Positions 21,840 to 31,460 of a stretch of DNA of 64,000 nucleotides are shown piece by piece. The notes beneath the pieces are model-generated. The model saw only the letters and a list, made by a program, of their open reading frames with translations, was not told the DNA's origin and searched no databases. Source of the stretch: the human T2T-CHM13v2.0 reference genome, Homo sapiens. Position 1 is the first letter of the stretch; each line of letters begins with the position of its first letter. Made by a program: the position numbers and the translations under genes. The stretch lies in NCBI RefSeq assembly GCF_009914755.1, contig NC_060928.1. The stretch is one strand, 5' to 3'.

Positions 21840-22024
21840 ACATTTGGTTATATTAAAGGTTTATTTAAAGTATGACTAAAGCCCATGGTCTAGATACATT
21901 CTTTATGGTTTTTTGGAGTTTTCACTGGAACATGCACAAAGTATGCAAAATTATAAAACTACCATCAACTATAGTTAAGATAGAAGTAGATACTCTTCTG
22001 ATAACTGTAAATATCCAGCACCAT
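21840..22024 (-). other. SCPPPQ1: Candidate SCPPPQ1 last (3'UTR-only) exon with poly(A) signal
   Basis: Textbook acceptor CTAACattttgttttttccctattatag| at 22025; AATAAA on the - strand at 21865-21860. Confidence 0.6.
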
Positions 22025-23039
22025 CTATAATAGGGAAAAAACAAAATGTTAGTTTCAGATATTCCTAGAGGAAGATCTATCTGCTATATCACTAGGTAAT
22101 ATTCCCTTCATACTTATTTTCCTTATGTCTTATGTAAAATGAATGTTTTTTATTTTAGAGACATTTAGTAAAATAAGTAATAATATTTGCCATTTACTGA
22201 GTATCTATTATATTTCTTAATTCTATCCACATCCTGTTAGGTAGTAGTATTCCCATTTCACAAATGAATACATTGATATTTAGAAAGGTTGCCCGCAGTT
22301 TTATTTGCTAGTAGAGTTGGGATTTGAATCATGGTCTGACTGGGTTGCAAAGCTATTCTGTCTATTGTATTCCCTACTAAGGTTAAGAGTCTTTTATGAT
22401 ACATTATTTAAGTATGCAGCTTGGAAGATTATGTGTAACATAAGTAGTACTCATGTTATTCATAGTATTGCAGTTATGATTTGTGAGTTGAAATTTAAGG
22501 GCCACACCTGATTTGGCTAGCATTGTTGAAGTTGTTTGTGTAATTTTGGCCCAAAGATAGTTTATTTGATGATAACCTAAGGATAAAGGGCCACAGTCAG
22601 TGTTTGTTTTGTCAGCAGGTGTTCTTGAGCTTTTGAAAGCATTTCAAACTCAAATAGAAGGATATGCAAAGTTTCCTTAGGATCATAACTACTTTAAATA
22701 TTTGGTGGCTAAAGGGGGAACTTGAAAATTCTGAGCACTTCGAGAGGCTATTCTTATTTAACAGTATGTTTTCTTATGCTTAGGACTTCTGGTGGTGGTT
22801 ATTTTCTAAAATATTTCTGGAGTTTTAATAAACTGACTTTAAAATACATCCTTTGAAGAAAGCATTTGTAATTAATTGGTCTTGTTTACACCTATTTTCA
22901 TCATATTATTAATTTACCGTTGTGGACACAATCAGAGGCAATTAAACTCATGATAAAAATATTGAAAAGGATATAAATGCATGAAAGAATTTGGAGATTT
23001 TACTAACCATACGTAACTTCTGGCATAGTAGTGGGAGAA

Positions 23040-23045
23040 TTATTT
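23040..23045 (-). CDS. SCPPPQ1: SCPPPQ1 penultimate exon coding K-stop (exon about 23008/23013-23045)
   Basis: tattttgacag|AAA TAA, then donors |gtatgg (23012) or |gttagt (23007); casein-like short stop exon; an alternative candidate lies at 23653-23727. Confidence 0.6.
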   Translation of the reverse strand, partial: K

Positions 23046-23751
23046 CTGTCAAAATAGATAATACAGATTATAGTTATAATTTATATGAAGATATTTTCAC
23101 CACAATTCCTTCTTCACCCATGCCTCCCATTTTATGGTTATTTTATTGCTGATGTGTTAATATTGGTATAATCATGTATGTTGGAGGTGGAAAATAATGT
23201 GGAACTGTTAAATGCTGATAAATTGAATCCTTAACTGTTTACAGCATAGAGCTTAATCTCTCCCACTTGGCCTCAGATAGTCTAAGTATTTGAAATGGTA
23301 AAAGGTACTAAATAAGCACTTCAGGGCAATGTAACTTGTTAGGAGAGAAGCAGTTGGGTGGAAATCCAGTTTCTTTCTCCAAGGCTGTAGTACATACACT
23401 ATGATTGGGCCCGTGAATAGCCTCTGTAGTCCAGCCAGGACAACATAGCAAGATCCTGTTTCTTAAAAATATTAGAACAACAAAAGGGATATATACCTTT
23501 TTGGTCTCCACGTTTTTCTTTCTTTCTTTCTTTCTTTCTTTTTTTTGGTATGTATTTTACATGAAAGCAAACTTCAGTGAAAGTCAAAGTAGAAGTCAAA
23601 GTTTGTAGCCTTTGTATCCAGCAAGTTAATGCTTTTTGTTAAGATGTGTTACCTTGCCTTGAGATCAGTCCATTTCTAGGTGTGGCAGTTTTACAGTAGG
23701 CTTTTCTCATTATTTACTATGAATTGCCTATAAGACAAAAATAAGCCTGAA

Positions 23752-24049
23752 AGCCTGGGCACAGTGGCTCACGCCTGTAATCCCAGCACTTAGGGAGGCT
23801 GAAGCGGGTGGATCTCTTGAGGTCAGGAGTTTGAGACCAGCCTGGCTAATGTGGTGAAACCCCGTCTCTACTAAAAATGTAAAAATTAGCCAGGTGTGGT
23901 GGCACATGCTTGTAATACCAGCTACTAGGAAGGCTGAGGCAGGAGAATCGCTTGAGCCCGGGGGGGCAGAGGTTGCAGTGAGCCGAGATCACGCCACTGC
24001 ACTCCAGCCTGGGTGACAGAGCAAGACTCCTCAAAAAAAAAAAAAAAAA
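23752..24049 (+). mobile_element. AluS
   Basis: Full dimer; TSD aagcctgaa. Confidence 0.93.
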
Positions 24050-24333
24050 GCCTGAAGCAAACTTTGTTGTTTGAAATTTCATATTGCATATATGCCTGTA
24101 AATTTAAATTTTGTGAAATATCAAGGACATTATTAAAAAATACCTTTTTAGACTGGCAAAAATTTTGATGTAAAGATTTTGGAGGAAATGAGTTTATAAC
24201 TTATGAGTTCTAGTTTGGTAGATCAGTTGAGGTTGACTCTCATATTTTTATAGTTACAAAGAGTTTCTCTTACCTTTCGTGGCATTGAATATAACTTACC
24301 TTTATCAATTTAGTCATGGAAATAAAATCTTAC

Positions 24334-24345
24334 CCCAGAGAAGTT
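24334..24345 (-). other. SCPPPQ1: Degenerate 12-nt SCPPPQ1 exon 8 (NFSG) lacking its AG acceptor
   Basis: Branch-like TACTAA, about 30-nt T tract, then ttttGG|AAC TTC TCT GGG|gtaaga; donor intact, acceptor reads GG. Confidence 0.6.
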
Positions 24346-24449
24346 CCAAAAGTTAAAAAAAAAAACAACAAAAAAAAATTTAGTAAGATGTTATCTTTAG
24401 TCTATTAAGTAAATGTGTAGTTTATTATAGCATAAAAATAGAGCCTTAC

Positions 24450-28902: not shown

Positions 28903-28994
28903 CTGTAAAAAGAAACATGATGTCAGTCATTTCAGACAATGGCAAACTTTTAAAATGATGAATGCATTATTTAAAAATACAATTAGAAGTTCAC

Positions 28995-29027
28995 CTGTTC
29001 ACTGGAACTTTCAGCATATTGTTCGAG
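28995..29027 (-). CDS. SCPPPQ1: SCPPPQ1 exon 3: LEQYAESSSEQ
   Basis: ttttgcaag| ... cag|gtgaac; 33 nt, phase 0; ends in the SSSE (S-x-E) motif typical of SCPP exon 3. Confidence 0.9.
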
Positions 29028-30607
29028 CTTGCAAAACAATAACAGCAACAAGGTAAAGCAGCATATGGAAATACATTATCCACTAAAGAGAGGTTTTGTT
29101 CTAAAGGAGAATAAGTAATAAGCCACTATGGAGCATTATACCCATCAGTAATGTAACTTCACTTCTGAAATAAAAAGCAGTTGGATATCTAATAGGGAAA
29201 AGTTTAATTAATTTTGTGCAATGATTTGGAAGACCAAGGCTTTTTGCTTTTAAATTTATATCCAAAGAATGCTTTTATTTACATTTCTTAAGATTAATTC
29301 CATATTACATGAATATTTCCTTTTGTAAATCTTTGAATGGTGTTCTTGATTTAGTTCTCAGTAGTTATAAACTCAAAGTGAAGGGAGTGTGGAAATGTAC
29401 ACTTAAGTTCTGCACCCCAAACACAAATTTTGAAAGCTCCCTCACTTCTTCAAAAGCTCCTTTGATACAAAGTGTGCAGGGGAGAGAGTTTCTTGCCTAC
29501 TTGGTGCCCTCATATTCAGACTAGTAAACCCAGATTAGACTCAGTGGATCTCATTTGTATATAGTCAGTTGATGACAAAATGTCTATATAGGTGAAGTTA
29601 ATGATGTTCTGGGATTACAGTATTTCATATATTCTTAGATGCTATCATTGTCAAAAGCACCATTATTTCATAAATTACCAAAAAAGAAAAGCGCTGCTGT
29701 TAAGCTGCCGTGACACTTTATCAAATTGTGTTTTTAAGACACAGCTCAATTTCAGAGCTGCTGAAATATCAAAAAGTACATATTAGAATTAATGAAATAT
29801 GTATACTGCAGCATTCCCATCAGCCTAAAGAAACAGGCAATACAAATTGTTTGGAATTTTAGACCACGATACTTGCCAGCTTTGGCAAAAAGGATTGTGG
29901 TCTAAAGAAACAAATTAGGTTTGTTATCAAGGGCACTATAGATGAATGTAGCTTTTTATCCAAATCTGGTTTTCAAAAATTGGACTTTAAAGGTGTGTCT
30001 GTATGATCACTCAAATATAATTCAGGCATAAGTTGTTTTTATATTCATAATTTAGTAATCAATGTAAGTTATCTTAAATATTTCCTTCTTTAAAATCAAA
30101 TCTACAATGAGGTAGATAGTCCTTTGGTGTCAGAGCATTTCCATGTAACAGCCTTTTAAGAAAACATGAGATGGTTTGGGGCAAGGGCATTACAAATGAA
30201 ACTCAATTCAAACTGCTTAATTTAGACCTGGGTCACTGCAGAATATTTGTTCTATATCACTGAGTTTATTGAGAACATCCTATCTTTCAAATAGGACCCT
30301 TCTCTGCCTTAGATGCATTAAAAAAATCATCTCCGTGCAACTCTGAGGTGTTCCTAGGACTCATTTTATAGACAAGGAAACCATGGGTTAGTTCAAAGTC
30401 ACACAGCTAGCACATGGCATATGGAGCTGAGATTTGTACTGGGCAGAGTCTTGGACTGACAAAGAGTGGTGAACTCCTAGTTCTATGACTTTCCTGGGTT
30501 CCGCTTTCCTCTTTTGTGAAATGAAAAGATAAGACCTGCTTTCTAGCCGAGAAATGCGATGACTCTAAATCTGAAATTGAGTCAGCAGCTGAGGAGGGTG
30601 TACTCAC

Positions 30608-30664
30608 GGGGATGGGCAGAGCAGTGGCAGTGCTCAAAAGGCCAGCCAAGATGAGAAATTTCAT
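30608..30664 (-). CDS. SCPPPQ1: SCPPPQ1 exon 2: signal peptide MKFLILAGLLSTATALPIP (exon starts at 30678)
   Basis: ttccag| acceptor, 14-nt UTR, AGAATGA start context, 57 coding nt, |gtgagt donor, phase 0; casein/SCPP-type signal-peptide exon. Confidence 0.92.
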
Positions 30665-30964
30665 TCTAAAGGTCGAGCCTGGAATTGAAGGGGTAGGAGA
30701 TCATTTCGAGTTTTTTTCTATGTAAGTCCTATTCCTATTTAGAGGTGTTGAAATAGTGGTCAAGATAAATCCTGCCTCCAAACATAGGTTTTGTAAGCCT
30801 ACAAGAGTGTTTTTAAAAGCTTTGAATTCCTTAGACAAGACATGCACTGTTTAGCTCCCAACATAGCCCATTACTTTCTACTTTCTTATAAAGTTACAGT
30901 TCGGCCTATACACTGTACATGTTTGGTCCCTGAAGTTGCGTTTGTGATCTCTACACACAAATCC

Positions 30965-31277
30965 TTTTTTTTTTTTTTTTTTTTTTTGAGACAGGGTCTT
31001 GCTCTGTCACTCAGGCTGGAGTGCAGTGGCACAATCATAGCCTCCTGTACCCTCGAACTGCTGGGCTCAAGTGATCCTTCTGCCTCAGTCTCCCAAGGAG
31101 CTAGGACTACAGGTGTGCACCACCACACTTGGCTAATTTTAAAAAAATTTTCTTAGAGATGGGGTCTTGCTATGTTGCCCCCCTGTTGCAAGGATGGTCT
31201 TGAACTTCTGGCCTCAATCAACCTTCCCACCACAGCCTTCCAAAGTGCTGGGATTACAGGTGTGAGCCACTGTGCTC
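30965..31277 (-). mobile_element. AluJ in predicted SCPPPQ1 intron 1
   Basis: TSD tctac(a/t)cacaaatc. Confidence 0.92.
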
Positions 31278-31419
31278 AATTCTACTCACAAATCTTTAAA
31301 CACCAGTGTTACATCATGCTTATTATTAGTAATTGATCACTACTGGCTAAAATGAGAGGAAAGTTTTTATGTAATACACAAATAAATCCACCTGAAGCTT
31401 GTACCTCTGTGAGACTTAC

Positions 31420-31460
31420 CAGGCCTTCATATAGTCTGGTTGCTGTTATTGCCAGTTATA
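31420..31460 (-). other. SCPPPQ1: Candidate non-coding exon 1 of SCPPPQ1 (5' end uncertain)
   Basis: Strong donor CTG|GTAAGT at 31420/31419, the nearest one upstream of exon 2; SCPP genes have a short non-coding first exon; a competing donor AAG|GTAAGT sits at 31644. Confidence 0.5.

What the first reader, a model, noticed from the sequence alone, without database searches (positions are those of the whole stretch)
21840..31460. Hidden micro-exon gene for a secreted Pro/Gln-rich phosphoprotein (SCPPPQ1) between NUDT9 and SPARCL1
Seen: six small exons (57, 33, 78, 39, 27 and 30 coding nt) on the - strand, each with AG/GT boundaries and each phase 0. They join into one stop-free frame: signal peptide MKFLILAGLLSTATA, LPIPLEQYAESSSEQ, a P/Q/F-rich middle, then VLTPNDLIALLIAILNQLG. 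A K-stop mini-exon and a UTR-only last exon with AATAAA follow; skipping the dead exon 8 gives 89 aa. The ORF track shows only the first 19 residues. Established: all-phase-0 exons, a signal-peptide exon 2, S-x-E (FAM20C/Golgi casein kinase site) ending exon 3, and a stop in the penultimate exon define the SCPP family (caseins, statherin, ODAM, amelotin), which arose from SPARCL1. Recognition: SCPPPQ1, a protein of the enamel-organ/junctional-epithelium basal lamina with reported antibacterial activity. It is described but poorly annotated in human, so the exact exon model is what needs testing.
Basis: partly seen in the sequence, partly recalled or inferred. Interest (0 to 1): 0.85.

Follow-up and report, generated by a model that had tools for sequence, protein, structure and literature searches.

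The report
Known human SCPPPQ1 tooth-attachment gene

Summary
The exons are real and are human SCPPPQ1, a described gene (RefSeq NM_001405228.1; cDNA MK322956.1, PMC8660882). It is not hidden.

- **The 39-nt exon (26552-26590).** It is a real, intact orthologue of the ancestral "exon 5". The block is present in 19 of 27 mammalian models. It was hit by 9 of 9 non-primate queries. It is absent from all 5 primate models, from RefSeq and from the cloned human cDNA.
- **The "dead exon 8".** But the human mRNA does not skip to the K-stop exon. It uses the next AG, inside the old donor, giving a 29-nt exon that ends ILFP-stop. The product is 79 aa, not 89.
- **Published data.** The published composition (P 22%, Q 9%, L 19%, charge -3) fits the 79-aa model and not the 89-aa one.
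- **Open point.** Exon 5 has splice signals no worse than the exons that are used, so a minor isoform that includes it remains possible.

The gene is ordinary and already known. The small additions here are the mechanism of the human C-terminal change and the retained exon 5.

The parts
32033..32066 (-). RefSeq exon 1, 5'UTR
Evidence: Hub annotation. Donor AAG|GTAATT.
31644..31673 (-). RefSeq exon 2, 5'UTR
   Evidence: Hub annotation. AG acceptor and AAG|GTAAGT donor.
30608..30678 (-). Signal-peptide exon. ATG at 30664. Encodes MKFLILAGLLSTATA plus LPIP.
   Evidence: 100% identical to the dog, bat and macaque models (E about 2e-13). Helix 3-14 in the model. The published mature protein starts at LPIP.
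28995..29027 (-). 33-nt exon LEQYAESSSEQ with S-x-E (S27-S28-E29)
   Evidence: S-x-[E/D] is present in 13 of the 24 orthologue models that have this exon.
28825..28902 (-). 78-nt P/Q/F-rich exon. Contains FPLPPQPP, the published membrane-active peptide.
   Evidence: E 1.9e-27 to 2.7e-9. Residues 34-41 in the M+mature numbering are FPLPPQPP, as in PMC8660882.
26552..26590 (-). Intact orthologue of ancestral exon 5 (ISIPFPFPYNPNQ). Not in the human RefSeq mRNA or the cloned cDNA.
   Evidence: Hit by 9 of 9 non-primate queries. The block is present in 19 of 27 models and in 0 of 5 primate models. The paper states that the human protein lacks rat exon 5.
25213..25239 (-). 27-nt exon VLTPNDLIA, start of the C-terminal helix
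   Evidence: The modelled helix covers residues 60-78.
24450..24479 (-). 30-nt exon LLIAILNQLG, core of the helix
24334..24345 (-). Relic of the ancestral 12-nt micro-exon 8 (reads NFSG). It keeps its GTAAG donor but is preceded by GG, not AG.
   Evidence: Macaque NFFG and Aotus NFLG align here, as does G-[FL]-[FLI]-G of other mammals.
24300..24328 (-). Human RefSeq exon 8 (29 nt), ILFP plus TGA. The acceptor is the AG inside the old donor. The donor is AAG|GTAAGT.
   Evidence: no AG between 24395 and 24330. 0 of 27 orthologue models end in ILFP.
23008..23045 (-). Exon 9. Starts AAA TAA, the ancestral K-stop exon. It is 3'UTR in the human reference mRNA.
   Evidence: 7 of 27 models end ...G-K.
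21843..22024 (-). Last exon, UTR only. AATAAA at 21860-21865.

Best explanation
The stretch is the human SCPPPQ1 gene, a known single-copy member of the P/Q-rich SCPP family that lies tail to tail with NUDT9.

**Reference product.** The reference mRNA joins six coding parts into a 79-aa precursor:
- a 15-residue signal peptide, cleaved before LPIP;
- an acidic Ser cluster with one S-x-E site, which is a candidate site for the Golgi kinase FAM20C (inferred from the motif, not shown);
- a disordered Pro/Gln/Phe-rich middle;
- a hydrophobic C-terminal helix.

**Function, from the papers.** The secreted 64-aa protein is a constituent of the specialised basal lamina between maturation ameloblasts or junctional epithelium and the tooth. 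It binds itself, ODAM and AMTN. In vitro it clumps and damages Porphyromonas gingivalis.

**Differences from the ancestral mammalian gene.**
1. Ancestral exon 5 (26552-26590) is still intact in the DNA but is left out of the cloned mRNA.
2. The ancestral 12-nt micro-exon 8 has no AG acceptor. Splicing falls on the next AG, which sits inside the old donor GTAAG. The frame shifts and the protein ends ILFP-stop in a 29-nt exon. It no longer ends G-F-L-G-K, with the stop in exon 9.

The splice-shift mechanism is inferred from the human DNA and from other species' protein models. The exon content of the mRNA is taken from RefSeq and from one paper.
For: **Exon structure**
- Exon boundaries and the 79-aa frame.
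- Orthologues: 27 proteins at E<=0.01, 24 of them named SCPPPQ1 by their sources.
- tblastn with 10 of these 27 places every coding exon at the RefSeq boundaries.
- The whole human assembly gave only two matches below E 0.1, and both are exons of this locus.

**Published human cDNA**
- PMC8660882 (passages): human cDNA MK322956.1 came from dental tissue, lacks rat exon 5, and differs from an earlier prediction. It reports P 22%, Q 9%, L 19% and charge -3.
- Computed for the RefSeq mature protein: 21.9 / 9.4 / 18.8 % and -3.
- Peptide 34-41 = FPLPPQPP fits a 65-residue M+mature protein.

**Exon 5**
- Present in 19 of 27 models and absent from 5 of 5 primate models.

**C-terminus**
- No AG lies between 24395 and 24330, and GG precedes the micro-exon.
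- 7 of 27 models end G-x-x-G-K, and 0 of 27 end ILFP.

**Structure**
- AlphaFold2 on macaque X2 with 15 orthologues: helices 3-14 and 60-78 (pLDDT block means 76-85), the rest without regular structure, residues 16-33 below 50.

**Function**
- Passages in PMC5402393, PMC7840901, PMC8660882 and PMC4174742.
Against: - The human exon content rests on one cloned cDNA and the RefSeq record built on it. I saw no RNA-seq data.
- By a simple position matrix (values recalled, approximate), the exon-5 donor scores 5.86 bits. That is no worse than three exons that are used (5.57, 5.95, 6.43). Its acceptor is the most pyrimidine-rich in the gene at 17 of 18. The sequence therefore gives no clear reason for skipping.
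- The primate models are computer predictions that may lean on the human record. No ape model was returned.
- The macaque AG at the micro-exon is inferred from a protein model, not seen in DNA.
- Small mismatches with the papers: GRAVY 0.45 published against 0.51 computed; 14 rat prolines published against 15 in P0024.
- S-x-E is missing in 11 of 24 orthologue models, so phosphorylation may not be essential. No paper passage I read shows it experimentally.
- The stop in exon 8 lies 52 nt before the last exon junction, at the edge of the usual nonsense-mediated-decay rule.
Confidence: 0.85

Rival explanations
1. Human SCPPPQ1 makes two or more isoforms. The 79-aa reference form is one. A minor, unannotated form includes ancestral exon 5 (92 aa with the ILFP end), and/or skips the 29-nt exon 8 to end in K (76 or 89 aa).
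For: - Exon 5 is open, 10 of 13 residues identical to rat, rabbit and mole rat, and flanked by usable signals.
- Squirrel models exist both with and without the block (P0014 against P0010).
- Macaque and Aotus records are labelled X2/X3, so further isoform models exist that I could not see.
- Skipping exon 8 would restore a stop 32 nt from the last junction.
Against: - RefSeq lists one transcript.
- The only cloned human cDNA lacks exon 5.
- 0 of 5 primate models carry it.
- A neutral 39-nt stretch would be expected to stay open over primate time by chance (inference), so intactness proves little.
- Listings for 'SCPPPQ1' with 'isoform' or 'splic' show no paper on the subject (titles and abstract starts only, plus passages in two papers).
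Confidence: 0.25
2. The reader's 89-aa model (exon 5 in, exon 8 skipped, K-stop) is the main human product, and the reference cDNA is an atypical clone.
For: - It is the architecture closest to the commonest complete non-primate form. 7 of 27 models end G-K and 19 of 27 carry the exon-5 block.
- The rat precursor is 90 aa.
Against: - The published human composition and charge exclude it.
- The paper says that an earlier prediction was found to differ from the cloned sequence.
- The exon-8 donor AAG|GTAAGT is the joint-strongest donor in the gene by the simple matrix (12.46 bits, shared with 5'UTR exon 2), so skipping it would be odd.
Confidence: 0.06
3. A chance run of AG...GT open intervals, or a decayed pseudogene.
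For: Open AG..GT intervals are common (104 in 3.6 kb).
Against: - Exon-by-exon orthologue matches at exact boundaries.
- A curated mRNA.
- Human cDNA was PCR-amplified and used for interaction tests, and the protein synthesised from the cloned sequence was active in vitro.
Confidence: 0.01

Closest known systems
Rat and mouse SCPPPQ1 (Gm17660; rat clone EO-463)
   Same: - Orthologous exons for the signal peptide, the SSSEQ exon, the P/Q exon and the helix exons.
- The same locus order.
- Ten exons in mouse.
- Basal-lamina location and action on P. gingivalis.
   Different: - Rat is 90 aa and carries exon 5 (IPIPFPFPFDPNQ). Human is 79 aa and lacks it.
- The mature proteins are 56% identical. 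Net charge is +1 in the rat study (neutral at pH 7 in the human study) against -3 for human.
- The human mRNA has two 5'UTR exons.
- The C-terminus differs: ILFP in human, VNLIR in the rat record, GFLGK in deer mouse, sand rat and mole rat.
Ancestral-type SCPPPQ1 of dog, marmot, ground squirrels, deer mouse, sand rat and mole rat (models ending G-x-x-G-K)
   Same: All human coding exons have counterparts. The human DNA still holds exon 5 and the K-stop exon.
   Different: Human has lost the acceptor of the 12-nt micro-exon and uses a shifted 29-nt exon.
Earlier predicted human SCPPPQ1 (reference 20 of PMC8660882; I recall this as Kawasaki et al. 2011, which is not held)
   Same: This is my inference only.
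   Different: The paper says only that the prediction was 'somewhat different' from the cloned sequence. I could not see the prediction itself.
Other P/Q-rich SCPP genes (ODAM, AMTN, FDCSP, Ca-sensitive caseins)
   Same: - Phase-0 small exons, a signal-peptide exon, S-x-E after the signal peptide, and P/Q richness.
- Caseins are proposed to derive from SCPPPQ1 or FDCSP.
   Different: - SCPPPQ1 lies apart from the main P/Q cluster, next to SPARCL1.
- There is no detectable sequence match to any other locus in the genome at the sensitivity used.
- It has no Pfam family.
Proline-rich antimicrobial peptides (Bac7)
   Same: PMC7840901 reports similarity of the rat protein to Bac7, and membrane damage to P. 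gingivalis.
   Different: The human protein is anionic (-3) and much of its effect is aggregation. I did not test membership.

Membership tests
SCPP gene family (P/Q-rich branch) | Location in the 4q SCPP region beside SPARCL1 | tested here: met
   The hub annotation places it between NUDT9 and SPARCL1. The order SPARCL1-SCPPPQ1-NUDT9 is also stated in the bioRxiv paper 2025.03.27.645633.
SCPP gene family (P/Q-rich branch) | Untranslated first exon(s). The next exon encodes the whole signal peptide plus a few mature residues. | tested here: met
   Two 5'UTR exons are followed by an exon that holds the ATG, 15 signal residues and LPIP.
SCPP gene family (P/Q-rich branch) | All introns within the coding region are phase 0 | tested here: met
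   Coding parts of 57, 33, 78, 27 and 30 nt are all multiples of 3, as is the 39-nt exon 5. The last coding exon is 29 nt and holds the stop.
SCPP gene family (P/Q-rich branch) | S-x-E phosphorylation motif encoded at the end of the exon after the signal-peptide exon | tested here: met
   Human ESSSEQ has S27-S28-E29. Among the orthologue models that have this exon, 13 of 24 keep S-x-[E/D]. Phosphorylation itself is not testable with these tools.
   In the human reference mRNA the stop lies in exon 8 of 10, two exons before the end. The ancestral K-stop exon 9 would meet the criterion. This is a lineage change, not a reason to exclude the gene.
SCPPPQ1 orthologue group | Sequence orthology across the whole coding region | tested here: met
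   27 proteins at E 5.8e-48 to 2.5e-7, 24 of them named SCPPPQ1 by their sources. Exon-by-exon tblastn with 10 of the 27 confirms it.
SCPPPQ1 orthologue group | Pro/Gln-rich small secreted protein (about 8-9 kDa) | tested here: met
   The mature protein is 64 aa, with P 21.9% and Q 9.4%.
SCPPPQ1 orthologue group | Expression in maturation ameloblasts and junctional epithelium, with location in the basal lamina | not testable with these tools
   Taken from passages in PMC4174742, PMC5402393 and PMC8660882.

The most novel reading that the evidence does not exclude
Human SCPPPQ1 still makes a minor, unannotated rodent-like isoform that includes the intact ancestral exon 5 at 26552-26590 (+13 aa, ISIPFPFPYNPNQ). 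The human or ape lineage acquired its ILFP C-terminus through loss of the micro-exon-8 acceptor (GG in human where macaque is inferred to have AG), which moved splicing into the old donor. That would be a small worked example of exon sliding in a rapidly evolving secreted protein of the tooth seal.
Probability: 0.25. Interest if true: 0.3.

Novelty: already known. Interest (0 to 1): 0.15.

Why it matters
The gene, its protein and its roles in the specialised basal lamina and against P. gingivalis are in print and in RefSeq, so the finding adds no new gene.

Its practical value is as a check on the exon model. Anyone synthesising or raising antibodies to 'human SCPPPQ1' should use the 79-aa form (64 aa mature, ILFP end), not the rodent-like 89-aa form.

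Two small points may be new. I did not find them in the passages I read or in the listings.
- The human DNA keeps an intact exon 5 with usable splice signals.
- The human C-terminus can be explained by a missing AG before the ancestral 12-nt micro-exon.

Both can be tested with public primate genomes and one RT-PCR.

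Tried and rejected
- **Weak donor as the cause of exon-5 skipping.** A simple position matrix (recalled values) gave 5.86 bits. Three used exons score 5.57, 5.95 and 6.43, and only 3% of 166 intronic GT sites reach this score. The idea is not supported. 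MaxEntScan and SpliceAI were not available.
- **Pfam.** There was no family for the P/Q exon translation or for 4 of the 27 orthologues.
- **A single exon as a database query.** The stop-to-stop frame around the exon (43 aa) worked.
- **Second copies in the human assembly.** None were found. The three other matches have E above 2.5.
- **SPARCL1 relationship by sequence.** Only weak signal-peptide hits appeared, E 0.04-0.9, which is not significant.
- **Kawasaki et al. 2011.**
- **Supplements.** One docx was listed for PMC8660882 but I did not open it. It may hold the full peptide sequences.
- **Earlier findings of this scan.** They were closed.
- **Hydrophobic moment of the C-terminal segment.** It is low (0.18-0.34) with high mean hydrophobicity (0.5-0.7). 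The helix is hydrophobic rather than clearly amphipathic.

Full report
**What is in the sequence.**

On the minus strand, the six RefSeq coding parts are 30664-30608, 29027-28995, 28902-28825, 25239-25213, 24479-24450 and 24328-24314. Each is bounded by AG and GT, and together they join into one 79-aa frame that ends ILFP-TGA.

It has a T-run acceptor ending GTAG and the donor CAG|GTGGTT. It contains a (TTCCTT)x3 repeat.
- The 'K-stop mini-exon' is RefSeq exon 9 (23008-23045, starting AAA TAA).
- The last exon (21843-22024) has AATAAA at 21860-21865, 17 nt before the annotated end.

AG/GT plus an open frame is common: 104 such intervals lie in one 3.6-kb intron. The case therefore rests on homology, not on splice dinucleotides.

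**Identity.**

No single exon reaches the 40-aa minimum of the protein search. I therefore sent the unbroken stop-to-stop frame around the P/Q exon (43 aa), which found two macaque SCPPPQ1 models.

- With the 86-aa macaque model as query, 27 proteins scored E<=0.01 among 32 candidates. Their sources name 24 of them SCPPPQ1.
- tblastn with 10 of the 27 against the window placed every coding exon at the RefSeq boundaries. The signal-peptide exon was 100% identical to dog, bat and macaque, and the P/Q exon scored E 1.9e-27 to 2.7e-9.
- A dog model searched against the whole human assembly gave only two matches below E 0.1. Both are exons of this locus.
- Pfam has no family for it.

**The exon model.**

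PMC8660882 (passages, and Methods section 15 in full) states the following:
- The human sequence was obtained from dental tissue (GenBank MK322956.1).
[quoted passage not shown] - The mature protein has P 22%, Q 9%, L 19% and net charge -3.

The RefSeq mature protein gives 21.9 / 9.4 / 18.8 % and -3. With the added Met, the RefSeq form is 65 residues and positions 34-41 read FPLPPQPP, as published. My GRAVY is 0.51 against the published 0.45, a small mismatch. The cloned human product is therefore the 79-aa form.

**The 39-nt exon is the ancestral exon 5.**

- In the alignment of all 27 models with the two human models, a block of the type IPIPLPFPFPYDPNQ sits between the P/Q exon and VLTPND in 19 of 27 models. 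These include rabbit, seal, dog, wild dog, raccoon dog, hyena, bat, deer, beaver, marmot, two ground-squirrel models, deer mouse, sand rat, mole rat, rat and hamster, plus two unnamed records.
- It is absent from 8 models: all 5 primate models (macaque X2 and X3, Aotus, Callithrix, Plecturocebus) and 3 squirrel models.
- All 9 non-primate tblastn queries hit 26552-26590 (E 6.6e-8 to 5.6e-5). Rat, rabbit and mole rat align exactly to the exon ends with 10 of 13 identities. The best off-target match for this block had E 0.5.
- The published gap of ten residues fits: rat exon 4 is 23 aa against 26 in human, and 13 - 3 = 10 (my inference).

I cannot say why the exon is skipped.
- By a simple position matrix with recalled, approximate frequencies, its donor scores 5.86 bits. 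That is similar to three used exons (5.57, 5.95, 6.43).
- Its acceptor is the most pyrimidine-rich in the gene.
- Being open after perhaps 40 million years of disuse is expected by chance for 39 nt (inference), so it is no evidence of use.

**The C-terminus.**

- Seven of 27 models end G-[FL]-[FL]-G-K (one of them lacks the first G). This is a 12-nt micro-exon followed by the K-stop exon.
- Six read on from the micro-exon into ...GVRFYFHD-type tails.
- Seven read on after the 30-nt exon.
- None of the 27 ends ILFP.

In human, the micro-exon position reads AAC TTC TCT GGG followed by GTAAG (24345-24334). Macaque NFFG and Aotus NFLG align here. It is preceded by GG, not AG. No AG occurs between 24395 and 24330, so the first AG after the long T tract is the one inside the old donor, and that is the RefSeq acceptor. 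Starting 17 nt later shifts the frame and gives ILFP-TGA in a 29-nt exon, which closes with a consensus donor, AAG|GTAAGT.

Rabbit and seal tails read DKSK where human has GAT AAA G|GT AAG. The human donor GT may therefore be derived too. This is inferred from protein models only.

The mRNA, however, uses a shifted exon rather than skipping to K. The exon-8 stop lies 52 nt before the last junction, against 32 nt for the K-stop. That is borderline for nonsense-mediated decay.

**How it works.**

*Shown here.*
- The signal-peptide-like N-terminus has Ala at -3 and -1. It forms helix 3-14 in an AlphaFold2 model of macaque X2 built with 15 orthologues, that is 16 of the 27 proteins.
- The model has a second helix at 60-78, with pLDDT block means of 76-85. 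It has no regular structure elsewhere, and residues 16-33 are below 50. Mean pLDDT is 63.7, so the model is only indicative.
- The C-terminal segment is hydrophobic rather than amphipathic.
- One S-x-E site is present in human. S-x-[E/D] is present in 13 of the 24 models that have that exon.

*From papers (passages only).*
- The protein is a constituent of the specialised basal lamina, together with AMTN, ODAM and laminin-332.
- Human SCPPPQ1 showed the strongest self-interaction of the three in bacterial two-hybrid tests, and it binds ODAM and AMTN (PMC5402393).
- It is predicted, not shown, to be phosphorylated on two N-terminal serines (PMC4174742).
- The rat and human proteins aggregate and damage P. 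gingivalis, and FPLPPQPP is the membrane-active part (PMC7840901 and PMC8660882).

*Inferred.* FAM20C uses the S-x-E site, and the helix drives self-assembly.

**Comparison and novelty.**

The gene is in RefSeq and in at least 43 papers of the library. It has been proposed as a source of the Ca-sensitive caseins, a proposal that a 2024 preprint contests. The absence of exon 5 from the human protein is in print.

I did not find the following in the passages I read, or in the listings for 'SCPPPQ1' with 'isoform' or 'splic':
- that exon 5 is still intact in human DNA;
- the missing-AG explanation for the ILFP end.

I could not see Kawasaki et al. 2011, Moffatt et al. 2014 (recalled only), or any supplementary file. 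Any of these may cover those points.

**Verdict.** This is a correct recognition of a known gene, with an exon model that reflects the ancestral rather than the cloned human form. Interest is low.

Noticed in passing
window 24295-24336 (-): The DNA just 3' of the old micro-exon 8 reads GVRFYFHD*IDKGK. It matches the tails of the rabbit, seal and macaque models at 69-91% amino-acid identity, so intron-proximal sequence is conserved across orders. It also resembles the start of the preceding intron (24449 downward, VRLYFY...). That hints at an old duplication of an exon plus its flank, or at a splicing element for the micro-exon.
   Followed up: partly
window 26566-26583: There is a perfect (TTCCTT)x3 hexamer repeat inside ancestral exon 5. 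A pyrimidine-rich exon body could bind splicing repressors. I did not test this.
   Followed up: no
P0027 (Plecturocebus model): Its source names it 'Zinc finger matrin-type protein 1'. It is in fact an SCPPPQ1 N-terminus without the SSSEQ exon, run into sequence that looks to me Alu-derived (my recognition). The public record is probably mis-modelled.
   Followed up: partly
P0021 (Callospermophilus model) and window 21843-22024: This model joins the P/Q exon directly to the last exon. Its tail MVLDIYSYQK matches the start of human exon 10 (ATGGTGCTGGATATT...).
   Followed up: no
window 60542-60598 (-): The SPARCL1 signal-peptide exon gives weak tblastn hits to SCPPPQ1 signal peptides (E 0.04-0.9). 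This fits the accepted descent of SCPP genes from SPARCL1 but is not significant in itself.
   Followed up: no
RefSeq instead uses 5'UTR exons at 31644-31673 and 32033-32066.
   Followed up: no
P0024 (rat record): The rat record ends ...NQLQVNLIR, whereas deer mouse, sand rat and mole rat end ...QGFLGK. It also has 15 prolines where PMC7840901 reports 14. The C-terminus of this protein varies between species or between gene models.
   Followed up: partly
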